From: Patescibacteria group bacterium
GTDB taxonomy: Bacteria; Patescibacteriota; Minisyncoccia; Phycocordibacterales; UBA9973
Direction of reading: 5' to 3'
NCBI GenBank assembly: GCA_040390725.1
Contig: JAZJXT010000002.1
Location: 28,450 to 92,449, forward strand
Length of the DNA stretch: 64,000 bases
The notes under the pieces were generated by a model. It was not told the origin of the DNA. It was given only the letters and a program-made list of their open reading frames with translations, and ran no database searches. A program made the position numbers and the translations under genes. Below, piece after piece: positions 11,187-64,000 of the stretch. The first letter of the stretch is position 1, and each line of letters starts with the position of its first letter.

Positions 11187-14100
11187 ATGAGTCACAAAAT
11201 AAAAACAGCTTTAAAATCAATATTCGTTCTCTCTATGGTCGTGTTGTCAGCGCATGCTTTTGCAGTATGGACACCGCCACCAGCAGGGATACCTCCAGCC
11301 AACAATACTACGGCTCCTGTGAATGTGGGTTCTGTGACTCAATATAAAACCGGTGGGCTCGTCGTCGGAGGTTTTCGTTCTACTGGGCCTGCATTTTTTG
11401 ATGATACTGTGCAATTCAAACAGGTGACGACTTTGCCTGATTGTACTGCGACTGATTCTAGCGGTAATTTTATATACAAAGGGGCACAAATATACTACAA
11501 CGGCAGTATGGAATTTTGTAATGGAGTTACTTGGTCAGTAGTAGGCACCAAAGATTGGCTGACTACAGCAATGGGCAATATTTACTATACAAATGCCGGC
11601 AATGTAGGTATCGGTACGCAAACTCCAGCTACCAAACTCGACGTAGTGGGAACCATTACATCAACTGGCTTGAATGTCGTAGGCAATACGGCGACAACTG
11701 GTTTGACTACGGGTGCAACTGGGCTCACAGTTAGCGGACCACTTTCTATTCCTGACGGTGCATCAGCAGGGAAGGTTTTGACTTCTGATGCTGCTGGTAC
11801 TGCAACATGGCAAGGCTTAATTGCATCTTGGAGTCTTTCTGGCTCTAGTCTTTTCCCTACAGATTTTGCAAATGACAATGTCGGCATCGGCACTGATAGT
11901 CCTGCTGAACGCTTGCAAGTCAGTGGAGGTAATATTTTGACAGATAATAAATGGGCATTTGAAGCTAAAAATGCTTCGGGTGTAAAAGAGGCTTGGATGT
12001 GGCCTAGATATACTGATAATGTAATGTACACTAATTATGGTGCAAATGGTTGGAATATTCGCGACAACGGTGGAGCTCCTGTTATGTTTATGGACAAGAA
12101 TGATAATGTTGGCTTAGGTAATATTCTTCCAACTAATAAACTTTCTGTGACCGGGAATGCGGACTTCTCGGGTAATGTTGGGATAGGAACAAAAACTCCA
12201 AGCGCTCAGCTTTCTGTACTTGGTAATATTGCGATAGTAAGAGATCCAGGTTTTACAAATTACTCCCCAGGATCATCTTTGTCTCTTGAGTCTTGGAGTG
12301 ATGGAACTTCCACTAGTCATGATGATGATGTAGGGGCACAAGTTAGCGCTGCTGATTGGCTGGCTGGTACTGATGGTGCTCCGGGCACAGATAAAATTGT
12401 AAAGTATGCTTGTCCTTCCGGTAGTGGTGGTAGTACTTATCATAATGATTATTACAGAATTGACCTCGGTTCAGGAGCTTATGATTATCGAAAAATCAGT
12501 GATGTTTTTTGTGTTGCCGGTACAGATAAATTCTCTTTGAGAACCGACAGAGGCAATTTGCAATTTTTAGATACTAATTCTAATCCTAAATTTATTATGA
12601 CTCAGTCAGGTAATGTCGGTATCGGCGTCACTGCTCCTGCTGTAAAGCTTGACGTAAACGGCGCAGTAAAATTCGGCGATGATACTACGATTGTTTGTGA
12701 TACCACTCATCCGCAAAACGCAGGAATACAGAGATATGACAAAGTAGATAATATAATGAAAGCTTGTAACGGCACCACATGGATAGCTGTCGGAGCAAAT
12801 GCTGCACCTTCATCTTCACTCTGGTCTGCAGGTACGGGTGATGATGTTTTCAAAACACTAAATACTGGCAATACTGGTATCGGAACCCAAACTCCAGCAG
12901 CAAAATTGCATTTGAGCGGAGGTAATTTCTTGATGGATAATAGCGCGACTTTGCAAGCTTACAATCACGCTGTGCCGGCGATGATTAATGATTGGATGTG
13001 GCCTAGATACCATGATCCTGTTTCCGGTACTGACATCATGTACACTAATTTTGATGTAAATGGATGGAGCATTCGCAACAATACTGCGCACCCTGTGATG
13101 TTTATGAAAGACAATGGCAATGTCGGTATCAACACAATAAACCCGGTAAACAAGCTTTCAGTTAACGGAGATGTTAATATCGGTGATTCTATAATTCCTG
13201 GAAAGCTCGGTATAAATACCACGACTCCTACTTCTTCTTTGGATGTAAATGGAGACATCACTGCTTCTAGGGGTGTTTCACTTGTGAATAGTTCAGCGCT
13301 TAGTTTTTATTCTGGCACAAAGGGAACAAGTGTATATGAGCTTCCATATTTGCCTGCGACGGGCAATGATACTTGTGGCACTTTAAATTCTGATACTGAT
13401 GGTGATGGCAGTGTTGTTCCAAACAACGATCGTGTCATGTGTGATGGTTTAATTTCAGGACCTAGATGTTATGATCGTGTTCATCAAAGCACTGGAGATG
13501 TGGGCGCTTATGTGACATGTGTGGCTGATGCGGGTACTTATACTATTGCAAACAATACTAATAATTTACAATTTTCAAATGGCACAGGCACTAATGCGGG
13601 TGTCAGAGTCACTTTAGATAAAGACGGCAAGATGGGCGTGGGTACGACGATTCCACAGGCAAAACTCGACGTCAACGGCGGAATTAAATTCGGTTTAGAT
13701 GGCTTGGCTACGGATACTATTTGTACTGTTGCCGGTGTGCAGAGGTACAATGGTGCTATGCAATATTGTGATGGAACAAATTGGGTTCCTGTCGGGTCTC
13801 CTATGTTTTGGAATGTTATCGGTACGGGTTCTGACCTCGCTACTATAAATACTGGTAATGTCGGCATCGGTACGGGCACGAATCCTCCATTAGCAAAGCT
13901 TGATGTAAATGGTGCAGTTAAATTCGGTGATCAAACTGTTGTAAAAGATATTACTACTCCAAATTCAAATGTGCCGGGCTTTCCAAATGTCACTTGTAAT
14001 GTAGCCGGTACCCAGAGATACAATTCTGTTTCTGCAAAGATGGAATCTTGCGATGGTCATTATTGGTCAAGCGTTGGAGATAAATCTCTTTGGAATGCTG

Positions 14101-17100
14101 ACACGACTGGTGTCATGGTTTCTTTGGCTACTCCTGGACAAAAAGTCGGTATCGGCACAGCTACTCCTCATTCTGCTCTCGAAGTTGTCGGTAATTTACA
14201 AATCACAAGCCCTATCAGTGGTCCTAGTTCCAACAGTATAATTTTAGGAAGTGGAAAGTATGACAATTATGGTGGATGGCCTCTTATTCCAATGCTGACA
14301 ACTTCTGGTGATCCATTACCAGCAGACCCTGGATCAAGTGCGGATACTTGTGACAGTAATGAAAATGCTGTATATAGTTGTCCGGATAGTGTTACAAAGA
14401 ATTGTACAGATGTTACTTCGGGTACATTTAAGTCTTCCACTAGTAGTGCTCCTAGGGACGCATGGTATAAGCGAGATGTGTCTTGTGTTTCTCCTGATGA
14501 GCCTTTATATCAAATACAAAATAATTCTGGGGATTTGAAATTCATAAATAATAATGGTCCGCAAGTTACAGTTAATCAAAATGGCAATGTCGGCATAGGC
14601 ACTACCACTGCTCCGGGTGCAAAACTCGATGTAAACGGTGGCATCAAATTCGGCCTTGATGGTTTGGCTACGGATACTACTTGTACTGTTGCCGGTGTGC
14701 AGAGATATAATCCTGCTAATTCAAATGGAATGCAATTTTGTGATGGCTCACACTGGAAAGATGTCGGTTCTCCTGCTACATGGAATGAAGTTGCTGGTGT
14801 GCTTTCTCCATTTACTCTGACAGATAAAATCAGTATTGGTAATGTTGCTCCTTTTGAAATAGATCCAGGCAATGTTTCTTCAAATTCCTCAAATGCTGGA
14901 TTCCTTCGTTTTGGTGATAATTCTGGATGGAAATTCCATTTTGGAAGAGCTAAAGAATCCACTTCTTCCGGTTTCAATACTGACACTACCGGTTCTATTA
15001 TGACGATGCAAGACAATGGCAATGTGGGTATTGGTACTACATCTCCGAAGGCAAAATTTGAAGTTGCAGGAAATAGTGGAGATGACTTAATTAACATTAG
15101 AAATCTTTCTACCAGTCAGCCAAATGCAACTTCTTGGGCATTGCGTCCGGTTACAAATAGTAAGACTGCTTATGCTACAGATTTGCAATTCTTCGAACAC
15201 GGACTAGACGGAGCTAGAGTTACCTTCCAAGGTAATGGTGGAAATGTAGGTATCGGTACGACAAATCCTACCGCTAGGCTCGATGTTGCCGGAGCAGTTA
15301 AATTCGGTGATGAGCACGTAGTTACTACTTGTGATTCTACTACGAATGGTACACAAAGGTATAATAGTTCTGGAGTAATGCAATGGTGTAATGGTGTAAA
15401 CTGGCAGAGTTATGGTAGTGGTGTGGGCTGGATAGCTAATGGCAATGATATTTATAATGGTAACAATGCTGGAAATGTAGGGATAGGCACCGGAGCAACT
15501 CCTGTAAAAAATAAACTTTTTGTTAATGGTGATGTTGGTACTTCTGCTTCTATTATTAGTGGCGGTATGATGTATTTGCAAGGCAATGATTATGAACATT
15601 TAGGTAATTTGAAATATGTCAGCCAAGGAATCTTTCTCGGAGGAGATGGATTGAGTCATGGAGATATTTCATGGCTTCCAAATTCCAATACCCTTAACCT
15701 AGGTACAGGTGATGATCCTACAAAGGCAGCTAATTATCCTGATCAATATGGCCCTGTAAATCTTTCCTTGGGTGGACAAATCAGAATCGGTGGCTCTACT
15801 GCGGTTTTTGATTACAATGGACACAGTGTTACTACTGTCCCTCATCCTCCTACGAAGGGGCAAGTTTTGACAGCGTTAGATTCTACCGGTCTTGCTTCTT
15901 GGCAAGCACCCCAAGCTGGCCCTTGGTCAGTTGTAGGTGATGATATTTCAAATTCAAATACCGGAATGGTTAAAGTGAATGGTTCAATAGCTACAATATT
16001 GGGATTAAATAATAATGCGAACATCAGCCAGTATGATTTGGGAGCAAACAAGATTGGTGCCGCTACTTCTATTTATTCTTATGGACGCATTTGTGCCGGA
16101 AATAATTGGGGAACTTGTGACAGTGCTACTCAGTCCGGTGTAGTTATAGAATCTTCCGGTCAAGGTAAATTTGGAGCCGTTGATATTTCTGGGAATGGGC
16201 CGTCATACTTTGCTGCCGGGAATCTCGGAGTAGGCACAAATTCTCCTAACGCTAAACTTGATGTGAGCGGTGATGTGCAGGTTTCAGATGGTGTTTCTGT
16301 GGTAGATAGCTCAGCGGTTAGTTTTTATTCCGGTGATAAACATATCAACTCTCATACGGATTGGACTAATAAAAGTTCAAATAGTGCGACGCGTACCCCT
16401 GATACTTGTCCTGGTGCTGATACAAAACTTAAATTTGAGTGTATAGGTTCTAATACTGTGAATTCTTGTACAGACACCGCTGATTATCAGGAATATACTT
16501 CCGGACAACTTACCTTTGATGGTTGGGCAACTCGCACAGTTTCTTGTGTGGCTACTACCGGTGTTTATTCTGTAAAGAATAATAATAGCACTTTGCAATT
16601 CTTGAATGATAAAGGCACTGCTAAGTTAACTTTGGATCAAAATGGCAATTTGGGTGTAGGTGGCAATGTTAGTCTAGGGGCTGGCGGTAGTCTTCTTCAG
16701 ACTTCACCATTATACTTACTCGGTGATGCTAATGGATATACTGCTCTTAATTTAGACCCTAGCCAGTACGCCAGCCAGGGTATTCGTTTCGGAGGAGATG
16801 GAAAATCTCACGGAGACATGGCATGGATTCCAGGCTTAAATACATTTTATCTTGGAACAGGAGATAATCCGCAAGATATGCTCACAGGTGTTCCAAATAG
16901 ATACGGTCCGGCTAATCTTACTTTGGCGGGTGCTCTATCTATCGGCGGGCAAATTACAATTGCCGGCGGTTCCCCTGGTGCCGGAAAAGTTTTGACATCA
17001 GACAGTACAGGTAAGGCGACTTGGCAACAGCTCCCTCCTTCATCTGTATCTCCTTGGCTAGTAGGAACGAATCCAAACACACATAATACTACTATTAGTA

Positions 17101-17372
17101 CTGCGGCTAATACTGAAGTTACAGTAAATGGAAATTTGACAATTGCTAATGGCGCTAATGGGGTCCTTACTACTTCGGGAGATATTAACGCTGGTCAGAA
17201 TTTAAATGTTGCAGGAAGTTTAATTTTACTAAAAAAGTGTTACACTAATGATAAAAAAACTACTTTTACTAATTTCTATGGTACTAGTACCCCGAATCTA
17301 TATGGTAGAGCACTTTTTTTAAATGGAGATGGCAGTATTTACCCACAGCATGTAGATGGTTGTGATAACTAA
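11187..17372 (+). CDS. giant secreted tail-fibre-like repeat protein (2061 aa)
   Basis: Signal peptide (LKSIFVLSMVVLSAHAFA). At least 15 'GNVGIGT.TP.AKLDVNG' units. About six copies of the C...G.QRYN...C.G..W..VG module. Large internal duplications (WMWPRY...VMFM twice; GDG.SHGD..W.P..NT..LGTGD..YGP.NL twice; G.VLTSD..G.A.WQ three times). Confidence 0.7.
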   Translation: MSHKIKTALKSIFVLSMVVLSAHAFAVWTPPPAGIPPANNTTAPVNVGSVTQYKTGGLVVGGFRSTGPAFFDDTVQFKQVTTLPDCTATDSSGNFIYKGAQIYYNGSMEFCNGVTWSVVGTKDWLTTAMGNIYYTNAGNVGIGTQTPATKLDVVGTITSTGLNVVGNTATTGLTTGATGLTVSGPLSIPDGASAGKVLTSDAAGTATWQGLIASWSLSGSSLFPTDFANDNVGIGTDSPAERLQVSGGNILTDNKWAFEAKNASGVKEAWMWPRYTDNVMYTNYGANGWNIRDNGGAPVMFMDKNDNVGLGNILPTNKLSVTGNADFSGNVGIGTKTPSAQLSVLGNIAIVRDPGFTNYSPGSSLSLESWSDGTSTSHDDDVGAQVSAADWLAGTDGAPGTDKIVKYACPSGSGGSTYHNDYYRIDLGSGAYDYRKISDVFCVAGTDKFSLRTDRGNLQFLDTNSNPKFIMTQSGNVGIGVTAPAVKLDVNGAVKFGDDTTIVCDTTHPQNAGIQRYDKVDNIMKACNGTTWIAVGANAAPSSSLWSAGTGDDVFKTLNTGNTGIGTQTPAAKLHLSGGNFLMDNSATLQAYNHAVPAMINDWMWPRYHDPVSGTDIMYTNFDVNGWSIRNNTAHPVMFMKDNGNVGINTINPVNKLSVNGDVNIGDSIIPGKLGINTTTPTSSLDVNGDITASRGVSLVNSSALSFYSGTKGTSVYELPYLPATGNDTCGTLNSDTDGDGSVVPNNDRVMCDGLISGPRCYDRVHQSTGDVGAYVTCVADAGTYTIANNTNNLQFSNGTGTNAGVRVTLDKDGKMGVGTTIPQAKLDVNGGIKFGLDGLATDTICTVAGVQRYNGAMQYCDGTNWVPVGSPMFWNVIGTGSDLATINTGNVGIGTGTNPPLAKLDVNGAVKFGDQTVVKDITTPNSNVPGFPNVTCNVAGTQRYNSVSAKMESCDGHYWSSVGDKSLWNADTTGVMVSLATPGQKVGIGTATPHSALEVVGNLQITSPISGPSSNSIILGSGKYDNYGGWPLIPMLTTSGDPLPADPGSSADTCDSNENAVYSCPDSVTKNCTDVTSGTFKSSTSSAPRDAWYKRDVSCVSPDEPLYQIQNNSGDLKFINNNGPQVTVNQNGNVGIGTTTAPGAKLDVNGGIKFGLDGLATDTTCTVAGVQRYNPANSNGMQFCDGSHWKDVGSPATWNEVAGVLSPFTLTDKISIGNVAPFEIDPGNVSSNSSNAGFLRFGDNSGWKFHFGRAKESTSSGFNTDTTGSIMTMQDNGNVGIGTTSPKAKFEVAGNSGDDLINIRNLSTSQPNATSWALRPVTNSKTAYATDLQFFEHGLDGARVTFQGNGGNVGIGTTNPTARLDVAGAVKFGDEHVVTTCDSTTNGTQRYNSSGVMQWCNGVNWQSYGSGVGWIANGNDIYNGNNAGNVGIGTGATPVKNKLFVNGDVGTSASIISGGMMYLQGNDYEHLGNLKYVSQGIFLGGDGLSHGDISWLPNSNTLNLGTGDDPTKAANYPDQYGPVNLSLGGQIRIGGSTAVFDYNGHSVTTVPHPPTKGQVLTALDSTGLASWQAPQAGPWSVVGDDISNSNTGMVKVNGSIATILGLNNNANISQYDLGANKIGAATSIYSYGRICAGNNWGTCDSATQSGVVIESSGQGKFGAVDISGNGPSYFAAGNLGVGTNSPNAKLDVSGDVQVSDGVSVVDSSAVSFYSGDKHINSHTDWTNKSSNSATRTPDTCPGADTKLKFECIGSNTVNSCTDTADYQEYTSGQLTFDGWATRTVSCVATTGVYSVKNNNSTLQFLNDKGTAKLTLDQNGNLGVGGNVSLGAGGSLLQTSPLYLLGDANGYTALNLDPSQYASQGIRFGGDGKSHGDMAWIPGLNTFYLGTGDNPQDMLTGVPNRYGPANLTLAGALSIGGQITIAGGSPGAGKVLTSDSTGKATWQQLPPSSVSPWLVGTNPNTHNTTISTAANTEVTVNGNLTIANGANGVLTTSGDINAGQNLNVAGSLILLKKCYTNDKKTTFTNFYGTSTPNLYGRALFLNGDGSIYPQHVDGCDN

Positions 17373-23975: not shown

Positions 23976-24069
23976 AAACCGCACATAATTTTCTGCTGAA
24001 AATTTGCTATGTTCGGCTCGTCAGCCTGCGCAATGCTTTTTAAAAAATACTTTCTGTTTTCTTAAAGTT

Positions 24070-25218
24070 ATGAATAGTATAAAAAGTTTAAAAAACATAA
24101 AAGGTAAAAAAGTTCTTGTGAGAGTTGATTTCAATGTGCCTGTTTTGAACGGTAAGGTGGAAGACGATTTCCGAATACAAAAAGCATTGCCAACAATTAA
24201 ATTTTTACAGAAAAAAGGCGCGAAAGTTATTTTAATAACGCACTTGGGTAAAGGCGGGGAAACTCTTTTGCCGGTGGAAAAAGTTTTGAATAAATATGTA
24301 AAAGCTGTTTTTGTGGCTGATATTGTGGGAGAAAAAGCAGAAAATGCTGTGGATGCTATGAAAAATGGTGATGTAATTTTGTTAGAAAATTTACGTAATA
24401 ATGACGGCGAGAAAAATTGTGATAAAACTTTTGCGAAAAGTTTGGCAAAATTCGGGGATATTTATGTGAATGAAGCCTTTCCTGTGTCACACAGAGCTGA
24501 TGCTTCTATTGTTTTGTTGCCGAAGCTTTTGCCGGCGTATGCGGGTTTGCAGTTAGAAAATGAAGTGAAAAATCTTTCGAAAGTTTCCAAGAGCGTAAAG
24601 CATCCATTTCTTTTTATTTTAGGCGGTGCGAAATTTTCTACCAAGATGCCTTTGATTAAAAAATATTTAAAAACTGCGGACAATATTTTTGTTGGCGGAG
24701 CATTAGCGAATGATTTTTTGAAAGCGAAGGGTTATGAAGTTGGCAAATCTTTGACGGACAATGGTGATTTTGGAATTAAGAAATTTATAAATAATAAAAA
24801 ACTTATTTTACCGGTGGATGCTGTAGTCACCTCACCCCAGCCCTCTCCTTATAAAGGAGAGGGGGAATTCGTAAATAAAAAAGCAAGTGAAGTAAAAAAA
24901 GATGAAATTATTTTAGATGTCGGCAGTGAATCAGTAAAAAATTTAGCACCGATTATTAAAAAAGCAAAAATGATTCTCTGGAATGGGCCTTTGGGAAAAT
25001 ATGAAGAAAAAGAATGCAGAGCGACAAAAGAAGTTTTGAAAATGGTGATGAATTCAAAAGCTCAAGTGACTATAGGTGGCGGAGACATAGTCGCTGTTTT
25101 ATCTCAAATGAAAATTAATACTGACAAAAGAAAAAATTTATTTGTATCTACTGGCGGAGGAGCAACTCTCGACTTTCTTGCTAATGGCACCTTGCCAGGA
25201 ATTAAAGCGTTAAAATAA
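24070..25218 (+). CDS. pgk: phosphoglycerate kinase
   Basis: VLVRVDFNVP and ILWNGPLG motifs. Start moved to the ATG at 24070 (MNSIKSLKNIKGKKVLVRVDFNVP). Contains the in-frame palindromic insert at 24828-24865. Confidence 0.9.
   Translation: MNSIKSLKNIKGKKVLVRVDFNVPVLNGKVEDDFRIQKALPTIKFLQKKGAKVILITHLGKGGETLLPVEKVLNKYVKAVFVADIVGEKAENAVDAMKNGDVILLENLRNNDGEKNCDKTFAKSLAKFGDIYVNEAFPVSHRADASIVLLPKLLPAYAGLQLENEVKNLSKVSKSVKHPFLFILGGAKFSTKMPLIKKYLKTADNIFVGGALANDFLKAKGYEVGKSLTDNGDFGIKKFINNKKLILPVDAVVTSPQPSPYKGEGEFVNKKASEVKKDEIILDVGSESVKNLAPIIKKAKMILWNGPLGKYEEKECRATKEVLKMVMNSKAQVTIGGGDIVAVLSQMKINTDKRKNLFVSTGGGATLDFLANGTLPGIKALK
24828..24865 (+). repeat. RPE-like palindromic element, copy 1 (in-frame within pgk; encodes TSPQPSPYKGEGE)
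   Basis: cacctcaccccagccctctccttataaaggagaggggg; core is a perfect 10-bp inverted repeat ccctctcctt/aaggagaggg. Identical reverse-complement copy at 62919-62955 and a 2-mismatch copy at 57294-57329. Confidence 0.6.
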
Positions 25219-34838: not shown

Positions 34839-35261
34839 ATGAAAATAAAAGTTAAAAAATTAAAAGATGGGGCGAAGTTACCGACTTATCATCATCCGGG
34901 TGATGTCGGTATGGATATGTATGCCATGGAGGAAATTATTGTTGGCCCTGGTGAGCACGCGCGTATATGGCACGGTTTTGCTTTGGAATTCCCGATAGGA
35001 TATGGCGCATTGGTCATGGATAAGGGCAGTATTTCAAAGGCAGGATTGCATACTATGGGGGGAGTTTTTGATGCCGGGTATAGGGGTGAATACAATACGC
35101 ATTTGGTAAATTTATCTGACAAGCCTTATACTATAGAAGTGGGGGATAAAGTTTCGCAACTTGTGATCACACCTATTGTTGTTGCTGACTTAGAAGAAGT
35201 TGATTCACTTAGCGAGTCGGCTCGCGGTGAGGGAAGGTTTGGGAGTACGGGTAAAAAATAA
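34839..35261 (+). CDS. dut: dUTP diphosphatase
   Basis: Five dUTPase motifs including C-terminal RGEGRFGSTG. Confidence 0.9.
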   Translation: MKIKVKKLKDGAKLPTYHHPGDVGMDMYAMEEIIVGPGEHARIWHGFALEFPIGYGALVMDKGSISKAGLHTMGGVFDAGYRGEYNTHLVNLSDKPYTIEVGDKVSQLVITPIVVADLEEVDSLSESARGEGRFGSTGKK

Positions 35262-35262
35262 A

Positions 35263-37050
35263 ATGAGTATAAAAAATAAGCTAGAAAATTTAATAAAAGA
35301 TGCGTTAAAAAAGTTAGAAATGAATTCGCCAGACGGCGAAGTTAATTTTGTCGTAGAACATCCGGAAGATTTTAAGAATGGGGATTACTCTACGAATGTG
35401 GCATTGGTTTATGCTAAGAAATTAAAAATGAAACCTGTTGATTTGGCGGAGAAAATTTTAGCAGAACTTTATGAAGATACAGATGAAAAGGGCATTAAGG
35501 GTGTGGAAAATATAGAGATAGCCGGCGCGGGGTTTATAAATTTTTATTTAACACGTGAATTTTTCAGTGATTCTATAAAAGATATTTTACACAAGAATGA
35601 AGACTGGGGCAGGAATAATTTATTGGAAGGAAAAAAAGTAATGGTGGAATACACTCAGCCGAATCCTTTCAAGCCTTTTCACATAGGGCATTTGATGAGC
35701 AATGCCATCGGAGAGTCAGTTTCGAGAATTGTAGAATTCTCCGGCGCGAAAACTATCCGTGCGAATTATCAGGGTGATGTTGGTCCGCATATTGCGAAAG
35801 CGATTTATGGGATTATGAAAGACCCTGAGTACTTAGAGGCAAGACCTCTCAGTAGAGGTCTTGCCTCTAAGTCGGCATCTTGGATTGGGGAGTGTTATTC
35901 AAAAGGCAGTGATTTGTATGACAATGATCCGGAAGCAAAAAAAGAAATTGATGTAATAAATAAAAAAGTTTACGACAAGAGCGATGAAGAAATAAATAAA
36001 GTTTATGATTGGGGGAGGAAAGTCACCCTCGAAGCATTTGAAGAACTTTATAAAATTCTCGGCACGAAATTCGACTATTATTTTTTTGAAAGCGAGATGG
36101 CACCGATAGGTGAAAAAATTGTCCGCGCAAATGTGCCGAATGTTTTTGAAGAATCCGACCCCACACCAGAGCAAGCTCAGTACGGGGCAAGAGGCGCTAT
36201 TATTTTTCGTGCTGAGAAGTATAACCCTAAATTGCATACGCGAGTGTTCTTAACTTCACAAGGCATACCGCTTTATGAGACGAAGGAAATAGGTTTGACG
36301 ATGACGAAATTTGAAAAAGAAAATCCTGATATTTCTATTGTTGATACAGCTATTGAGCAAGGCGAATATATGAAAGTTGTTCAGCAGGCTATCGCACTCA
36401 TGCATCCGGAATTGGAAAAGAAAATGTTGCATATCACGCACGGTATGATGCGCCTCGCATCGGGCAAAATGTCTTCCCGAAAAGGTAACGTAGTCACAGG
36501 TGAGTCATTGTTGCGAGATTCTATGGATGTCGTATTGGAAAAAATCCAAGATAGAGATTTTACCGAAGAAGAAAAGAAAAAAGTCTCAGAAGTCGTCGGC
36601 GTGTCGGCGCTCAAATATTCTATTTTGCGTTCTTCTGTCGGCTCGGATATTGTTTATGATTTTGATAAATCAATTTCGTTTGAAGGGGATTCCGGCCCAT
36701 ATTTACAATATTCCGCTATCCGCGCGAAATCAATCCTCGCAAAAGCCAAAAGTGAAAATTTGGAGGCTAAACCTCCAAAAGAAGTTCCAGAACAAATTTC
36801 AGATTTAGAAAAAATTCTTTATCGTTTCCCCGAAGTTGTCGCGCGCTCATATGAAGACCTCGAACCGCACAATATCGCCACATATTTGACCGAGCTTTCA
36901 TCATCCTTCAATTCTTTTTACGCCAATACACAAATCTTAAACAATGAAGATAAATTTTCTTCATATTATTTAGCACTCACCAAAGCATTTTTCATCACAA
37001 TGCAAAACGGCCTTTGGCTTTTGGGAATTAAATTGCCGGAGAGGATGTAA
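35263..37050 (+). CDS. argS: arginyl-tRNA synthetase
   Basis: Start at the ATG at 35263 (MSIKNKLENL), 1 nt after the dut stop. PNPFKPFHIGHLMSNAIG (HIGH), DALR-type C-terminus. Confidence 0.9.
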   Translation: MSIKNKLENLIKDALKKLEMNSPDGEVNFVVEHPEDFKNGDYSTNVALVYAKKLKMKPVDLAEKILAELYEDTDEKGIKGVENIEIAGAGFINFYLTREFFSDSIKDILHKNEDWGRNNLLEGKKVMVEYTQPNPFKPFHIGHLMSNAIGESVSRIVEFSGAKTIRANYQGDVGPHIAKAIYGIMKDPEYLEARPLSRGLASKSASWIGECYSKGSDLYDNDPEAKKEIDVINKKVYDKSDEEINKVYDWGRKVTLEAFEELYKILGTKFDYYFFESEMAPIGEKIVRANVPNVFEESDPTPEQAQYGARGAIIFRAEKYNPKLHTRVFLTSQGIPLYETKEIGLTMTKFEKENPDISIVDTAIEQGEYMKVVQQAIALMHPELEKKMLHITHGMMRLASGKMSSRKGNVVTGESLLRDSMDVVLEKIQDRDFTEEEKKKVSEVVGVSALKYSILRSSVGSDIVYDFDKSISFEGDSGPYLQYSAIRAKSILAKAKSENLEAKPPKEVPEQISDLEKILYRFPEVVARSYEDLEPHNIATYLTELSSSFNSFYANTQILNNEDKFSSYYLALTKAFFITMQNGLWLLGIKLPERM

Positions 37051-37604: not shown

Positions 37605-39230
37605 ATGACTCAAGCAGAAGCACTGAATATTTTGAAGACGGGGGCGAATGTTTTTTTGACTGGGGAACCTGGTGCGGGGAAAAGTTATACGATAAATTCT
37701 TTTGTGGAATATTTGCGCGAGAGGGATATAGAGCCGGCGATAACAGCGAGCACGGGAATAGCCGCGACGCATATAGGCGGGATGACTATACATTCTTGGA
37801 GCGGTATAGGCATCAGGAAAAAACTCGATCAATATGATTTGGATAAAATAGCGAGCAGTGAATATATTGCGCGCAGGGTGCGGAGGACGCGCGTTTTGAT
37901 AATTGATGAAATTTCAATGCTGACGGCGGACATGCTCGATATGATAGACGCGGTGTGTAGGGAAGTGAAACAAAGCTCCGAGCCTTTCGGCGGAATGCAG
38001 ATAGTTTTGGTGGGAGATTTTTTCCAACTTCCGCCGATTGTGAAAAATGATACGGACGAAAAACAAAAAACTCTTTTAGTGGAAAAGAAGAAGAGCGTTT
38101 TTGCTTATGATTCAAATGCTTGGGCTCGGGCGGGACTGGTAATGTGCTATCTGACGGAACAACACAGGCAGGATGACAAAGATTTCTTGGATTTTCTTTC
38201 CGCTATTCGCGCGGATAAAATAAATGACGAGCATATGGAATACGTGACGGCGCGACAGACTATTTTAGACGATGTGCCGGATAATGTGACGAAATTATTC
38301 ACGCATAATTTTAATGTGGACACGGTGAATAATATGGAATTGGAAAAAATTACGGAAGAGAAAAGAAAATTCGAAATGATTTCCGAAGGACGCGACGCAT
38401 TGGTGATGGCATTGAAAAAAGGATGCCTCTCGCCGGAGAATTTGGAACTCAAAATAGGCGCGGTGGTGATGTGCACGAAAAATAATCAAAAAGAAGGATA
38501 TGTGAACGGCACATTGGGCATAGTGGAAGATTTTGACGAATTCACCGGCTATCCGATAATTAAAAAAAGAAATGGCAAAAGTATAAATGTTTCTCCGCTT
38601 GACTGGGTGGTGGAAGAAAATGGAAAAATTTTGGCGATGATTTCGCAAGTGCCTTTGCGCCTGGCATGGGCGATGACGGTGCATAAAAGCCAAGGGATGT
38701 CGCTCGATGCGGCTATTATGGATTTGTCGCAAGTCTTTGAATACGGGCAGGGGTATGTGGCGCTCTCTCGCGTGCGCAGGCTTTCCGGACTTTATCTTCT
38801 CGGCATAAATGAGCGTGCATTCAAAGTGCATCCGGAAATTTTAGAAAAAGATATTTTCTTTAAAGAGCAATCAGCCGAAGCGGTAAAAGTCTTCGGCAAA
38901 CTTTCCGAAAGTGAACTTCAAAAAATGCATGATAATTTTGTGTTGGCTAGTGGAGGGGAAGTAAAGATAGAGTATAAAAGAGAAGAGCAGATGCGCGCGC
39001 CGAGTACGGCGCGCGCCCTGGATAATTCTGAAAGTTCTCCAGTTAAACCTTTTGAAAAAATAAGAGAACAACACCCCAATGCTTATCGTCCTTGGGATAA
39101 AATACAAGACGAAGAATTAGAAAAATTATTCAGCGAAGGAGTACCAACAGCTGACCTTATGAAAAAATTTGGCAGGAAAAAAGGAGGAATAACTGCCAGA
39201 CTTGAAAAACTTGGTTTAGTTAAATCATGA
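37605..39230 (+). CDS. PIF1/RecD-family ATP-dependent DNA helicase with C-terminal HTH-like tail
   Basis: Walker A GEPGAGKSY, ASTGIAA, DEISML, and the PIF1 signature region. Confidence 0.8.
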   Translation: MTQAEALNILKTGANVFLTGEPGAGKSYTINSFVEYLRERDIEPAITASTGIAATHIGGMTIHSWSGIGIRKKLDQYDLDKIASSEYIARRVRRTRVLIIDEISMLTADMLDMIDAVCREVKQSSEPFGGMQIVLVGDFFQLPPIVKNDTDEKQKTLLVEKKKSVFAYDSNAWARAGLVMCYLTEQHRQDDKDFLDFLSAIRADKINDEHMEYVTARQTILDDVPDNVTKLFTHNFNVDTVNNMELEKITEEKRKFEMISEGRDALVMALKKGCLSPENLELKIGAVVMCTKNNQKEGYVNGTLGIVEDFDEFTGYPIIKKRNGKSINVSPLDWVVEENGKILAMISQVPLRLAWAMTVHKSQGMSLDAAIMDLSQVFEYGQGYVALSRVRRLSGLYLLGINERAFKVHPEILEKDIFFKEQSAEAVKVFGKLSESELQKMHDNFVLASGGEVKIEYKREEQMRAPSTARALDNSESSPVKPFEKIREQHPNAYRPWDKIQDEELEKLFSEGVPTADLMKKFGRKKGGITARLEKLGLVKS

Positions 39231-55834: not shown

Positions 55835-57290
55835 TTTTTACCTTACAACCACATTGCCTTATGTAAATGCAGATCTGCATTTAGGGCATGCGCTTGAATT
55901 TGTGCGTGCAGATGTCATCGTGAGATATAAAAAACTCGCAGGCTTTGATGTGTATTTTAATACCGGCACGGATGAACACGGTATGAAGATATTTGAAAAG
56001 GCTAAAGAGAAAAATATTTCTGCACAAGAATTTGTAGATCAAAGTTTTTTAAATTTTAAAGAATCGGTTAAAATTTTCGGCATGGTTGATGATTTGCATT
56101 ATATACGCACTACTGATAAAAAACATGAAAACATTGCGAAAGATTTTTGGATGAAATGTTTTAACAATGGGTATATTTACAAGAAAAATTATGAGACGAA
56201 ATATTGCGTGGGCTGTGAATCAGAAAAGACTGATTCTGACCTCGTAAATGGCGAATGCCCTGATCATCCAGGTAAAAAGCTCGAAATAATCCAAGAAGAA
56301 AATTACTTTTTTAAGTATAGTGAATTTACTGATAAGTTAAATAAATTTTATGCTGAGCGTCCTGATTTTGTCGTGCCGGATTTTCGTTTTAATGAAATAA
56401 AAGCTTTTGTCGAAAGAGGATTGCAGGATTTTTCTATTTCAAGATTGAAAACAAAAATGCCTTGGGGGATAGAAGTGCCGAACGATAGTGACCATGTGAT
56501 GTATGTGTGGTTCGATGCTTTGACGAATTATATCTCGACTTTGGCAGATGATGGAGTAGATACTCTCGATGCACTGGTTGCTAGTGAAAAATTCCAAAAA
56601 TATTGGGTTAATGGAAATCCGACGCAATATTGCGGGAAAGATAATTTACGTTTTCAGTCTGCGATGTGGCAAGCGATGCTCATGTCTGTAAATATTCCTA
56701 ATTCGCATCAGATAGTTATCAATGGATTTATTACCGGTGACGGGGGAGTAAAAATGTCTAAAAGCTTGGGTAATGTTGTAGACCCCAAAGATATTGTAGC
56801 CGAATATGGCATTGATGCTTTGCGATACTTTTTACTCTCAGAAGTTTCTTCTTTTGAAGATTCGCCTTTTACTATCGAGCGTTTTAAAGAATGTTATAAT
56901 GCCAAACTCGCGAATGGTTTGGGTAATTTAACGAGCAGAATTATGAAAATGGCAGAGACTAATTTAATTTCACCAGTTTCCATAGATGATAATTTTTATC
57001 CGAAGTTAGACGTAGGAGTTGATTTAGAAATGTTTGACTTATCCAATGCTATGAAAAAAATTTGGGCGTACATGAGTACTATGGATGGTCACATACAAGA
57101 CAAACAACCTTTTAAATTAATTAAAACAGATAAAGAAAACGGAGTTAAAGAGATTACAATACTTACACAAATGCTTTTTTGTGTTGCCAAAGAGCTTGCT
57201 TCTTTTATGCCTGAAGCTTCGGAAAAAATATTAAAATTGATTAAAGAAAATAAGAAGCCTGAGCAGCCTTTATTTCAGAGGAAAGATTAA
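55824..57290 (+). CDS. metG: methionyl-tRNA synthetase (short form)
   Basis: ATG at 55824 (MKNSFYLTTTLPYVNADLHLGHA; HLGH); zinc knuckle CVGCE; KMSKSLGN. Confidence 0.9.
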   Translation: MKNSFYLTTTLPYVNADLHLGHALEFVRADVIVRYKKLAGFDVYFNTGTDEHGMKIFEKAKEKNISAQEFVDQSFLNFKESVKIFGMVDDLHYIRTTDKKHENIAKDFWMKCFNNGYIYKKNYETKYCVGCESEKTDSDLVNGECPDHPGKKLEIIQEENYFFKYSEFTDKLNKFYAERPDFVVPDFRFNEIKAFVERGLQDFSISRLKTKMPWGIEVPNDSDHVMYVWFDALTNYISTLADDGVDTLDALVASEKFQKYWVNGNPTQYCGKDNLRFQSAMWQAMLMSVNIPNSHQIVINGFITGDGGVKMSKSLGNVVDPKDIVAEYGIDALRYFLLSEVSSFEDSPFTIERFKECYNAKLANGLGNLTSRIMKMAETNLISPVSIDDNFYPKLDVGVDLEMFDLSNAMKKIWAYMSTMDGHIQDKQPFKLIKTDKENGVKEITILTQMLFCVAKELASFMPEASEKILKLIKENKKPEQPLFQRKD

Positions 57291-57293
57291 GAA

Positions 57294-57329
57294 CCTCACC
57301 CCAACCCTCTCCTTATTAAGGAGAGGGGG
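57294..57329 (+). repeat. RPE-like palindromic element, copy 2 (intergenic, metG-tatD)
   Basis: cctcaccccaaccctctccttattaaggagaggggg; 2 mismatches to copies 1 and 3; perfect 10-bp stem. Confidence 0.55.
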
Positions 57330-58782: not shown

Positions 58783-59244
58783 ATGTATTTAAACAAAGCA
58801 ATTGTAATAGGAAATCTAACCCGCGACCCGGAACTTCGTTCTTTGCCGTCTGGGATCAAGGTCTGTACATTTTCTCTTGCTACAAATCGTGTTTGGAAAG
58901 ATAAAAATGGCGCGAAACAAGAATCTGCGGATTATCACAATGTTGTAGTATTCGGACGCCAAGCAGAAACAGTTGCTCAATACATGAAAAAAGGGAATTC
59001 AATTTTAGTAGAAGGCAGAATGCAGACACGCAGTTGGGATGACAAAACTTCTGGCGAGAAAAAATATCGTACAGAAATAGTCGCCGACAGAACACAATTC
59101 GGACCGAAAGGGGGAGCAGCGCCAAGCGGAGGTACTAGTATGGGTTCTGGTCAGACACACACACCGACAGGAGCGAGCGCAGAGGAAACAGACAGCATCG
59201 AGTATCCAGAAGAAGATATTAACCCAGAAGATATACCATTTTAA
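58783..59244 (+). CDS. ssb: single-stranded DNA-binding protein
   Basis: OB-fold (NKAIVIGNLTRDPELR); Gly/Ser-rich linker; acidic C-terminal tip EDIPF. Confidence 0.9.
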   Translation: MYLNKAIVIGNLTRDPELRSLPSGIKVCTFSLATNRVWKDKNGAKQESADYHNVVVFGRQAETVAQYMKKGNSILVEGRMQTRSWDDKTSGEKKYRTEIVADRTQFGPKGGAAPSGGTSMGSGQTHTPTGASAEETDSIEYPEEDINPEDIPF

Positions 59245-59257
59245 TTAATTAATAAGT

Positions 59258-59298
59258 CCCGATGTCGGACATATGGGAACCATATGTCCGACATCGGG
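59258..59298 (+). promoter_or_regulatory. perfect 19-bp inverted repeat (3-nt loop) between ssb and rpsR
   Basis: cccgatgtcggacatatgg gaa ccatatgtccgacatcggg; 13 nt upstream of the rpsR ATG. Confidence 0.5.
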
Positions 59299-62694: not shown

Positions 62695-63243
62695 TTACTT
62701 TTTTTCATAAACCACAAAAGAATACGGCAAGGGGTTTTTGTCGTCGGGTTGGTGATTTTCGCGCCAGGTTTCTTTCCAGATGTTTTTATCTATTGCAGGG
62801 AAAAACACATCGGCAGTTTTGTCTTCGGCACTTATTTCTGTGATGTCTAGGTGCGTCGCCACTGTATTTATGGCTTGTCGGTAAATATCCGCTCCGCCTA
62901 TTATGTAAACTTTTTCTTCCCCCTCTCCTTTATAAGGAGAGGGCTGGGGTGAGGTGCTTACTTTTTTAACTGCCTCCTCTAAAGAATGCACTACGTCTAT
63001 GCCGAGGCGTAGATAGCTTTTATCTCGTGTGATTATTATATTTCTGCGGGATGGCAAAGGTCGTCCAAGTTCGCCAGAAGGGCTTTTGCCCAATGATTCA
63101 AAAGTTTTCCTGCCCATTATTACCGGATGCCCCAAAGTTTTATCTCGAAAATATTTTTGATCTGCCGGCATTTTCCAAACTAAATCATTACCCTTGCCGA
63201 GCTCATTATTTTTTCCTATGGCTGCTATTAGTGAAATTATCAT
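62695..63243 (-). CDS. folA: dihydrofolate reductase
   Basis: MIISLIAAIGKNNELGKGNDLVWKMPADQKYFRDKTLGHPVIMGRKTF. Contains the in-frame palindromic insert (STSPQPSPYKGEGEE). Confidence 0.9.
   Translation of the reverse strand: MIISLIAAIGKNNELGKGNDLVWKMPADQKYFRDKTLGHPVIMGRKTFESLGKSPSGELGRPLPSRRNIIITRDKSYLRLGIDVVHSLEEAVKKVSTSPQPSPYKGEGEEKVYIIGGADIYRQAINTVATHLDITEISAEDKTADVFFPAIDKNIWKETWRENHQPDDKNPLPYSFVVYEKK
62919..62955 (-). repeat. RPE-like palindromic element, copy 3 (in-frame within folA)
   Basis: Reverse complement is cctcaccccagccctctccttataaaggagagggg, identical to the pgk copy; same orientation relative to its host gene. Confidence 0.6.
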
Positions 63244-63264: not shown

Positions 63265-64000
63265 TTAAACCGCAATCGGGGCTTTGATGCCTTCGTGCGG
63301 ATTGTAATCAATTAATTCAAAATCTTCTATAGTAAAATCTTCTATATTTTTTTTATTTGGATTTATTTTCATTTTCGGTAATGGGCGTATGTCACCACGG
63401 CGGGAGAGTTGCAGTTTGGCTTGTTCTAAATGATTGGAATACAAATGCACATCACCTCCGGTCCAGACAAATTCTCCGGCTTCGAGTCCGCAGATTTGCG
63501 CCATCATCATGGTGAATACGGAATACGATGCGATATTGAAAGGCAAACCTAAAAAAGTATCGCAGCTTCTTTGGTAAAGCTGGCAAGATAATTTTCCATC
63601 AGCTACATAAAATTGAAAAAAACAATGACACGGAGGCAGGCCGGCTTTTGACATCTCTTCAATGTCGGCTACATTCCAAGCGGATACAATCAGTCGGCGA
63701 GAGTCGGGAGTATTTTTAATTTGTTCAATGACATTTTTTAATTGGTCAATGTGTTTTCCATTTGGCGCTGGCCAATTCCTCCATTGGTATCCGTAAATAG
63801 GTCCGAGGTTGCCATATTCTTTTGCAAAATTTTCATCAGTTTTTACTTTTTCCACAAATTCCGCCATACCTTTTTTCCATTCTTCACCATTGATTTTCGG
63901 AATTGGTAAATTATTTCTTTTCAAATACGCTTTGTAAGGCCATTCATCCCAAATGTGCACATTGTTGTCCGCAAGATATTTTAAATTCGTATCGCCTCGC
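63265..64000 (-). CDS. thyA: thymidylate synthase (ThyA), N-terminus beyond window end
   Basis: [23 protein letters not shown] (catalytic Cys), DVHLYSNH. The ORF continues upstream past 64000 (IWDEW region is internal in ThyA). Confidence 0.9.

What the first reader, a model, noticed from the sequence alone, without database searches (positions are those of the whole stretch)
62919..62955. Second in-frame copy of the same palindromic element inside dihydrofolate reductase
The folA reading frame (minus strand) passes through the element and yields ...VKKVSTSPQPSPYKGEGEEKVYIIGGADIY. The element's DNA is 100% identical to the pgk copy over 35 nt although the host genes are unrelated. So the peptide comes from the element, not from convergent protein evolution. 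An essential enzyme tolerating the insertion argues for a surface-loop position.
Basis: seen in the sequence. Interest (0 to 1): 0.7.

Follow-up and report, generated by a model that had tools for sequence, protein, structure and literature searches.

The report
Triplex-motif DNA repeat inside DHFR gene
A 37-base GC-rich repeat of a known, widespread bacterial family (BoxC / triplex motif) sits in frame in a surface loop of dihydrofolate reductase of a tiny-genome Patescibacterium, and in this group such copies turn out to lie mostly inside essential genes, not between genes as reported for E. coli.

Summary
folA (62695-63243, minus strand) contains at 62919-62955 a 37-nt element identical to a copy inside pgk. 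Identity runs 40 nt. A third copy lies between metG and tatD.

The element is more than a palindrome. It is a hairpin (CCCTCTCC/GGAGAGGG) plus a mirror purine block (GGGGTGAGG). That is the known BoxC / PIT / TM_ECO intrastrand-triplex motif, reported in E. coli as strictly intergenic.

In folA it encodes TSPQPSPYKGEGE (residues 97-109) in the loop between helix alphaE and strand betaE. The modelled DHFR fold is intact.

Wider findings:
- Nineteen of 120 Nomurabacteria-type DHFRs carry the same motif at the same loop. The three blocks are identical at synonymous sites.
- The pgk copy is private to this genome.
- In 123 metagenome copies of this AT-loop subfamily, 78 lie deep inside long reading frames, at 51 distinct sites in more than 30 host protein clusters. 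Confirmed hosts include UvrB, UvrC, ValRS, MetRS, AlaRS, PNPase, MurB, MnmA, KsgA and RluA.
- There are no target-site duplications and no transposase in the window.

Best reading: a short structured repeat that persists in tolerant protein loops, filtered by which reading frame gives a harmless peptide. How it is copied is unknown. It is a new variant of a known kind.

The parts
62919..62955 (+). Triplex-motif repeat inside folA, with the G-rich strand on +. Layout: CC, block 1 CCCTCTCC (62921-62928), loop TTTATAA (62929-62935), block 2 GGAGAGGG (62936-62943), CT, block 3 GGGGTGAGG (62946-62954), T. On the minus (sense) strand it encodes TSPQPSPYKGEGE, DHFR residues 97-109.
   Evidence: The hairpin folds at about -10 kcal/mol, z -2.7 to -3.1. 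The element boundaries (C at -2 in 96%, T at +1 in 99%) come from 113 unique copies.
62695..63243 (-). folA, dihydrofolate reductase, 182 aa. It is the host gene, and thyA lies next to it at 63265-63960 (-).
   Evidence: Pfam DHFR_1 E=5e-49. PDB hits down to E=2.8e-35. AF2 model pLDDT 86.5. Foldseek versus PDB gives target-normalised TM 0.88-0.92.
24829..24865 (-). Identical copy of the repeat, in frame inside pgk (ORF 24004-25218 +). It is read as TSPQPSPYKGEGE in a surface beta-hairpin of the C-terminal domain.
   Evidence: The insert is absent from all 120 best PGK homologues at 63-71% identity. Position mapped by alignment to 1VPE.
57293..57329 (-). Third copy, 2 mismatches, with loop TTAATAA and spacer TT. 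It is intergenic: it starts 3 nt after the metG stop codon (57288-57290) and ends 14 nt before the tatD ATG (57344).

Best explanation
The sequence is a copy of a low-GC subfamily of the BoxC / PIT / TM_ECO repeat. This is a 37-nt G/C-rich module made of a hairpin plus a mirror-image purine block, which as single-stranded DNA can fold into a purine-motif intrastrand triplex. It occupies the length-variable alphaE-betaE surface loop of DHFR. There it is translated as a Pro/Ser/Gly-rich linker, TSPQPSPYKGEGE. It persists because in this orientation and frame it has no stop codon and encodes a flexible, harmless peptide, so the enzyme keeps working. The identical peptide in pgk is simply the same DNA read in the same frame. 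Shown: family identity; the in-frame position in a loop; the generality of in-frame copies in Patescibacteria-like contigs; the frame and orientation filter; the lack of target-site duplications; and exchange of the folA loop patch between near-identical strains. Inferred: the copies are neutral or selfish passengers, not functional protein parts. Also inferred: spread occurs by a transposase-independent route, such as hairpin or triplex-promoted template switching, or short-patch recombination or gene conversion. The copying mechanism itself is not known.
For: Family identity:
- The architecture and block sequences match Table 1 of Holder et al. 2015 (PMC4666352). An example there is CCCTCTCCCTGTGGGAGAGGGCCGGGGTGAGGGC.
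Nearly every hit is preceded by CCCTCTCC plus a 3-10 nt loop, in contigs of 38-74% G+C.

Loop position:
- PDB alignments place the insert between alphaE and betaE.
- The AF2 model has helix 88-97, a low-confidence loop, then strand 111-115. The fold is intact.

DNA origin of the peptide:
- Eight folA genes share ACCTCACCCC-NN-CCCTCTCC-loop-GGAGAGGG in the same frame. Only the two motif loops vary.

Generality:
- The metagenome scan returned 123 copies, of which 78 lie deep inside reading frames of at least 360 nt.
- These occupy 51 distinct sites in more than 30 host clusters.
- Pfam-confirmed hosts are UvrC, RluA, KsgA, ValRS, PNPase, MnmA, MurB, AlaRS, MetRS and UvrB.

Frame filter:
- The 78 genic copies split 56 TSPxPSPYKGEG, 16 PHPxPLLIKERG, 3 LTPxLSLLRRG and 3 forward frame.
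- By a separate ORF call, genic copies have the C-rich strand as sense 74:3, while intergenic copies show no orientation bias, 7:8.

Permissive loops:
- The same loops in orthologues carry other repeat families or nothing.

Age and exchange:
- The pgk copy is private to this genome and identical to the folA copy.
- L123 and L126 are 99.66% identical over 15 kb, but a patch of about 110-130 nt holding the element and about 50 nt upstream is replaced.

No classical transposition signs:
- No target-site duplications.
- No transposase among the window ORFs scanned.
Against: - No empty-versus-filled site pair between close relatives was found, so insertion as an event is inferred, not seen.
- The nearest relatives of this genome are only about 64-71% identical.
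- Net length gains are not a clean element length: +8 aa in PGK and RluA, about +10-11 in DHFR. Insertion must therefore have replaced loop residues, or loops differed beforehand.
- Strong nucleotide conservation of the blocks across DHFRs of about 60% identity could mean the DNA or RNA has a function, which a pure passenger model does not need.
- The metagenome sample was selected by an exact DNA pattern and capped at 120 stretches. Many copies are orthologous, so the proportions are rough.
- Translation of the insert has not been shown by proteomics.
Confidence: 0.72

Rival explanations
1. The motif is kept in folA and other genes because the nucleic acid itself does something. Candidate roles are a recombination or gene-conversion hotspot, a replication or transcription pause site, or an mRNA hairpin that paces translation between two folding units.
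For: The three blocks are invariant at synonymous sites in folA orthologues of about 60% protein identity, while the motif loops vary. The variable patch between strains that are 99.66% identical ends exactly at the element. This fits the local variability reported for TM loci in E. coli. In this subfamily the ninth triad is T-A*T instead of C-G*G, changed in all three blocks together. The 5' base of block 2 and the 3' base of block 3 co-vary in the viral set.
Against: Many orthologues lack the motif or carry unrelated repeats at the same loop. Host genes and sites are highly diverse. Published tests found no promoter, terminator or in vivo triplex signal. The co-variation is confounded by G+C content. 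Recent spread or homogenisation would give the same synonymous identity.
Confidence: 0.17
2. The inserted peptide is an adaptive protein feature. It could be a hinge extension or a docking motif, selected at the protein level in DHFR and other enzymes.
For: The same peptide recurs at one DHFR loop in 19 of 120 homologues. One frame dominates among genic copies, 56 of 78. From general knowledge of E. coli DHFR, the site lies at the junction of the adenosine-binding and major subdomains.
Against: Codon identity shows the nucleotide sequence, not the residues, is what is shared. The same DNA is also tolerated in other frames that give unrelated peptides. Unrelated enzymes carry it in unrelated loops. 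Model confidence is low in the insert. Many close homologues do without it.
Confidence: 0.07
3. It is an assembly or sequencing artefact, with chimeric joins at a repeat.
For: The genome is a metagenome-assembled one. The two genic copies are identical over 40 nt.
Against: 40 nt is far shorter than reads or assembly k-mer paths need to cause a chimera. Both host genes stay in frame and collinear with homologues on both sides. The same motif at the same folA codon occurs in at least seven independent assemblies.
Confidence: 0.02

Closest known systems
BoxC / PIT element / TM_ECO G/C-rich class II intrastrand triplex motif (Bergler 1992; Hoyne & Maher 2000, 2002; Holder et al. 2015, PMC4666352; Kaplan et al. 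2016, PMC5100583)
   Same: Both have the same three-block design and nearly the same block sequences: CCCTCTCC / GGAGAGGG / GGGGTGAGG, with a 3-nt second loop. Both are short (34-37 nt), dispersed and multi-copy. Neither has an associated mobility gene. Both show raised local variability between close strains.
   Different: The E. coli copies are reported as always intergenic. Here 2 of 3 copies, and about 63% of a metagenome sample, are in frame inside genes. The first loop is A/T-rich (TTWATAA). The ninth triad is T-A*T instead of C-G*G, so the published strict pattern is not matched. The hosts are low-GC Patescibacteria, whereas the TM_ECO pattern was reported in proteobacterial genomes (other G/C-rich triplex motifs also in cyanobacteria).
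Rickettsia palindromic elements (RPE; Ogata et al. 2000, cited from memory)
   Same: Both are short structured repeats inserted in frame into housekeeping genes of a reduced genome. Both are translated into extra surface segments that the proteins tolerate.
   Different: RPEs are about 100-150 bp and confined to Rickettsia. They are not known to share sequence with this element, though I ran no alignment. This element is 37 nt and has relatives across bacterial phyla and in phage contigs.
REP/BIME repeats mobilised by RAYT tyrosine transposases, and GTAG/CGTC-tagged palindromes
   Same: Both are short hairpin repeats dispersed without target-site duplications.
   Different: This element has no GTAG or CGTC head, has an extra third block, and shows no RAYT gene in the window. 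REPs are extragenic by definition. A GTAG-headed palindrome does occupy one UvrC loop in a related contig where another contig has the triplex motif.

Membership tests
BoxC / PIT / TM_ECO triplex motif | Pyrimidine block, loop, complementary purine block, short loop, then a second purine block that mirrors the first (C-G*G, T-A*A and T-A*T triads) | tested here: met
   The sequence is CCCTCTCC-TTTATAA-GGAGAGGG-CT-GGGGTGAGG. Block 3 read backwards is GGAGTGGG(G), against block 2 GGAGAGGG. That gives eight allowed triads including one T*A-T (rule).
BoxC / PIT / TM_ECO triplex motif | Strict published pattern CCCTCNCCC N3-6 GGGNGAGGG N3 GGGNGAGGG | tested here: not met
   This copy parses as CCCTCTCCT TTATA AGGAGAGGG CTG GGGTGAGGT. 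The ninth position differs in all three blocks (T, A, T instead of C, G, G). That is an isomorphic triad, not a match.
BoxC / PIT / TM_ECO triplex motif | Dispersed, multi-copy and highly conserved within a genome | tested here: met
   There are three copies in 64 kb, two of them identical, with 0 expected by chance.
BoxC / PIT / TM_ECO triplex motif | Intergenic location (all 23 copies in E. coli K-12) | tested here: not met
   Two of the three window copies are inside folA and pgk. In the metagenome sample 78 of 123 copies are inside long reading frames.
BoxC / PIT / TM_ECO triplex motif | Folds into an intrastrand triplex as single-stranded DNA in vitro | not testable with these tools
   Only the hairpin part can be predicted here, at about -10 kcal/mol. 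CD or NMR of the oligonucleotide is needed.
BoxC / PIT / TM_ECO triplex motif | Raised sequence variability around the motif between close strains | tested here: met
   This was seen in relatives, not in this genome. L123 and L126 are 99.66% identical over 15 kb. Most of the 27 mismatches and a 24-nt length difference sit in the folA patch that ends at the motif.
Rickettsia palindromic elements | In-frame insertion in protein-coding genes, translated as a tolerated surface segment | tested here: met
   Translation is inferred from frame preservation, not shown directly.
Rickettsia palindromic elements | Element of about 100-150 bp belonging to the RPE sequence families of Rickettsia | tested here: not met
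   The element is 37 nt and the host is a Patescibacterium. RPE length is from memory, and no RPE sequence alignment was run.
REP / RAYT system | GTAG or CGTC head next to the palindrome, with a RAYT (Y1 transposase) gene in the genome | tested here: inconclusive
   The element has no such head. No transposase-like Pfam hit appeared among the window ORFs scanned. Only 64 kb of the genome was available.
MITE | Terminal inverted repeats flanked by target-site duplications | tested here: not met
   The best flank repeat averages 2.66 nt against 2.56 nt in shuffled pairs over 113 unique copies. The ends of the element are not inverted repeats of each other.

The most novel reading that the evidence does not exclude
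The BoxC/triplex-motif repeat, whose origin and spread have been unexplained since the 1990s, may be an actively copying element that needs no transposase. In Patescibacteria it would colonise tolerant loops of essential proteins. Its block sequences would stay constant across phyla because the hairpin or triplex fold is itself what gets it copied, for example by template switching at stalled forks or by short-patch conversion. That would be a new kind of coding-sequence-invading mobile DNA and a source of protein loop variation in reduced genomes.
Probability: 0.25. Interest if true: 0.8.

Novelty: new variant of a known kind. Interest (0 to 1): 0.6.

Why it matters
The motif family is known but has no known function or spreading mechanism, and it has been described as intergenic. 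Here a subfamily lives mainly inside essential genes of ultra-small bacteria and is read as protein.

This provides three things:
- a natural data set of tolerated insertion sites;
- a clear frame filter that separates DNA-level from protein-level selection;
- strain pairs in which the element marks the edge of a recombination patch.

It also warns annotators and protein modellers that recurrent 'TSPQPSPYKGEG' or 'PHPxPLLIKERG' segments in Patescibacteria proteins are repeat-derived loops, not conserved motifs.

Tried and rejected
- Rfam scans of the whole window at gathering thresholds, and of the element region at E up to 10, gave only chance microRNA-like hits.
- An exact look-up of the DHFR protein in the contig index found nothing, so the rest of this genome could not be read.
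In 1.36 Mb of those loci only four loose motif matches appeared. The repeat is therefore not high-copy everywhere in the group.
- I asked whether the common 'ARTPLAQ' DHFR loop is a decayed motif. Its DNA (AGG ACT ACC CTT GCT CAA) does not show this clearly, so the question stays open.
- A neighbour-joining tree of 120 DHFRs scatters motif-bearing sequences into about ten groups. A 160-residue tree is too weak to separate many gains from many losses or patch transfer.
- Literature searches for the peptides, and for in-frame palindromic elements in this phylum, found no report. Only open-access papers and preprints are covered.
- A transcription-linked cause of the orientation bias was rejected, because intergenic copies show none.

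Full report
**1. The observation**

The minus-strand ORF 62695-63243 encodes a 182-aa dihydrofolate reductase (Pfam DHFR_1, E=5e-49). It contains the stated peptide VSTSPQPSPYKGEGEEKV.

The 36-mer CCCCTCTCCTTTATAAGGAGAGGGCTGGGGTGAGGT has three occurrences:
- 62920-62955 (+), in folA;
- 24829-24864 (-), identical, inside pgk (ORF 24004-25218, Pfam PGK E=8e-109);
- 57293-57328 (-), with two mismatches.

Shuffled sequence gave no matches. Reading the flanks extends the folA/pgk identity to 40 nt. The third copy is intergenic. It starts 3 nt after the metG stop codon and ends 14 nt before the tatD start. The window is 34-42% G+C, and the element is 59% by direct count.

**2. The organism**

The DHFR is identical to a protein from a 'Patescibacteria group bacterium' MAG. 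Its best relatives are annotated Candidatus Nomurabacteria and are at most 64% identical.

**3. What the element is**

It is not a plain palindrome. It has three parts:
- a hairpin, CCCTCTCC / GGAGAGGG, closed by TT..AA around a 3-nt loop (about -10 kcal/mol, z -2.4 to -3.1);
- a two-base spacer;
- a second purine block, GGGGTGAGG, which mirrors the first.

A literature search on the two purine blocks led to Holder et al. 2015 (PMC4666352). This is the BoxC repeat of E. coli. It was rediscovered as the potential intrastrand triplex (PIT) element and later named TM_ECO, for example CCCTCTCCCTGTGGGAGAGGGCCGGGGTGAGGGC.

According to that paper:
- the oligonucleotide forms a purine-motif triplex in vitro;
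- no triplex was seen in vivo;
- no promoter or terminator activity was found;
- no mobility genes are linked to it;
- all 23 copies in E. coli K-12 are intergenic;
- loci holding it vary more between strains.

Kaplan et al. 2016 (PMC5100583) describe the same sequences as a G-quadruplex/hairpin switch and also report them only between genes.

Almost every match was preceded by CCCTCTCC and a 3-10 nt loop, in contigs of 38-74% G+C. The motif is therefore widespread across very different genomes. Rfam has no family for it.

**4. How this copy differs from the published pattern**

It parses as CCCTCTCCT-TTATA-AGGAGAGGG-CTG-GGGTGAGGT. That departs from CCCTCNCCC N3-6 GGGNGAGGG N3 GGGNGAGGG at one triad only. 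The triad changes in all three blocks together, T-A*T for C-G*G.

In 113 unique copies of this subfamily the base after block 3 is T in 99%. In the viral set, G before block 2 goes with G after block 3 in 121 of 127 copies. Where the first base is not G, the second is G in only 4 of 15. This is suggestive of selection on three-strand pairing, but base composition confounds it.

**5. Position in the protein**

Alignments to solved DHFRs put the extra residues between helix alphaE and strand betaE. An AlphaFold2 model built from 30 sequences has mean pLDDT 86.5. It shows helix 88-97, a loop with block pLDDT 66, and strand 111-115. It superposes on bacterial DHFR crystal structures with target-normalised TM-scores of 0.88-0.92 and rmsd of about 2 Å. 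Catalytic motifs such as PAD, LVW, GRKTFES and IIGGA are present (read).

In pgk the insert replaces the turn of a surface beta-hairpin in the C-terminal domain.

**6. The folA loop in relatives**

Among the 120 best DHFR homologues, 19 carry a motif-type loop. Examples are TSPQPSPEKGEGE, TSPLPSPYKGEG and TSPQPSPYQGEG. About 35 carry an 'ARTPLAQ'-type loop, some carry another hairpin peptide (LPAGKAG), and the rest have a short loop.

I fetched DNA for seven motif-type orthologues. In five of the seven orthologues the canonical motif ACCTCACCCC-NN-CCCTCTCC-loop-GGAGAGGG is intact, and all seven carry a motif-type sequence in the same orientation, frame and position. The other two, L125 and L126, carry altered block sequences, and L124 a decayed third block. 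The blocks are identical at synonymous sites, although flanking codons differ freely. Only the two motif loops vary.

In a neighbour-joining tree the motif-bearing proteins fall into about ten scattered groups. The flanks of these loci hold no further copies. Copies are also rare in 1.36 Mb around other folA genes.

By contrast, the pgk insert is absent from all 120 best PGK homologues. The pgk copy is therefore young and lineage-specific. The folA site is either old or repeatedly refilled.

**7. Exchange between strains**

Two contigs from neighbouring Hainich groundwater wells (L123, L126) are 99.66% identical over 15 kb. A patch of about 110-130 nt in folA has been replaced. It comprises the motif plus about 50 nt upstream. 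The replacement has many mismatches, a different motif variant and 24 extra bases. Identity resumes immediately after the element.

This shows short-patch exchange of the loop in nature. It can explain the scattered distribution, and it echoes the instability reported for E. coli.

**8. Generality**

Contig G+C is mostly 0.30-0.50.

Of 123 copies, 78 lie at least 45 nt from either end inside reading frames of 360 nt or more. They occupy 51 distinct sites in more than 30 host clusters.

| Frame (peptide) | Copies | Distinct sites |
|---|---|---|
| TSPxPSPYKGEG | 56 | 32 |
| PHPxPLLIKERG | 16 | 13 |
| LTPxLSLLRRG | 3 | 3 |
| Forward strand, PLLxKERxGVR | 3 | 3 |

Pfam confirms hosts on both sides of the insert: UvrC, an RluA-type pseudouridine synthase, KsgA, ValRS, PNPase, MnmA, MurB, AlaRS, MetRS and UvrB. 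Some genes hold two to four copies.

A homologue search with the RluA host returned proteins named Nomurabacteria, Paceibacterota, Parcubacteria, Berkelbacteria and Minisyncoccia. One hairpin loop of that enzyme carries the motif in about 35 of 120 proteins. In others it carries the motif in a second frame, carries unrelated repeat-derived peptides, or carries nothing.

In UvrC, one contig has a GTAG-headed palindrome where another has the triplex motif. Certain loops are therefore landing places for several repeat families.

**9. What shapes the pattern**

Genic copies almost always have the C-rich strand as the sense strand, 74:3. Intergenic copies between co-oriented genes show no bias, 7:8. 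The bias is therefore a filter on the encoded peptide and on stop codons, not an effect of transcription.

That stop-containing frames do not appear inside genes also argues that the segment is translated, not skipped.

There are no target-site duplications. There is no conserved flank beyond C at -2 and T at +1. No transposase was found among the window ORFs scanned, although a PIF1-like helicase is present.

**10. Conclusion**

The element is a member of a known repeat family in an unreported setting: in frame, in essential enzymes, in Patescibacteria.

The most likely account is a structured repeat that survives where protein loops tolerate it. It works like the Rickettsia palindromic elements without being related to them. 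How copies arise is open. Template switching or short-patch conversion fits the lack of duplications and the patch seen, but this is inference.

A nucleic-acid-level function remains a serious rival, because of the synonymous-site identity of the blocks.

Noticed in passing
window 35831-35872: A perfect palindrome with 19-nt arms (ACTTAGAGGCAAGACCTCT cagt AGAGGTCTTGCCTCTAAGT) lies in frame inside argS (ORF 35200-37050). It is read as YLEARPLSRGLASKS. This is a different in-frame palindrome family in the same genome.
   Followed up: partly
window 59258-59298: A perfect inverted repeat with 19-nt arms (CCCGATGTCGGACATATGG / CCATATGTCCGACATCGGG) lies just downstream of ssb (58783-59244). It is intergenic and could be a terminator or another repeat.
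   Followed up: no
window 37605-39230: A PIF1-like helicase gene (Pfam PF05970, E=3.5e-37). Helicases of this family are known to unwind G-rich non-B DNA, which may matter for a genome carrying triplex or G4-prone repeats in genes.
   Followed up: no
window 63068-63094 (DHFR residues 52-60): DHFR has a second extra loop, GKSPSGELG, shared with a few orthologues (P0003, P0009, P0011). It has low model confidence (pLDDT 59) and its origin is unknown.
   Followed up: partly
L123 10001-10516 versus L126 10001-10540: Two groundwater contigs are 99.66% identical over 15 kb. They differ almost only in a folA patch of about 110-130 nt that ends at the repeat. This looks like a short recombination tract.
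   Followed up: yes
Homologue sets P0121-P0240 (PGK) and P0241-P0360 (RluA); L213 and L279 (uvrC): Other short repeat-derived peptides sit in the same tolerant loops. Examples are LPAQAG, LPAGKAG, PARRRGG, PLLKKEGRNSSRPAKGE and NFSSCALPRVRGGTLGxKNF. L213 uvrC also has a GTAG-headed palindrome and a (TTTTCAA)n run.
   Followed up: partly
window 11187-17372: A 2061-aa ORF with many internal direct repeats (families D1, D3-D9). It is probably a repetitive surface protein next to a type IV pilus-like gene cluster.
   Followed up: no
L124 19087-20449; L125 9077-9925: A reverse transcriptase plus bAvd gene pair, which looks like a diversity-generating retroelement, lies near folA in one Nomurabacteria contig. 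In another contig thyA is split into two ORFs.
   Followed up: no
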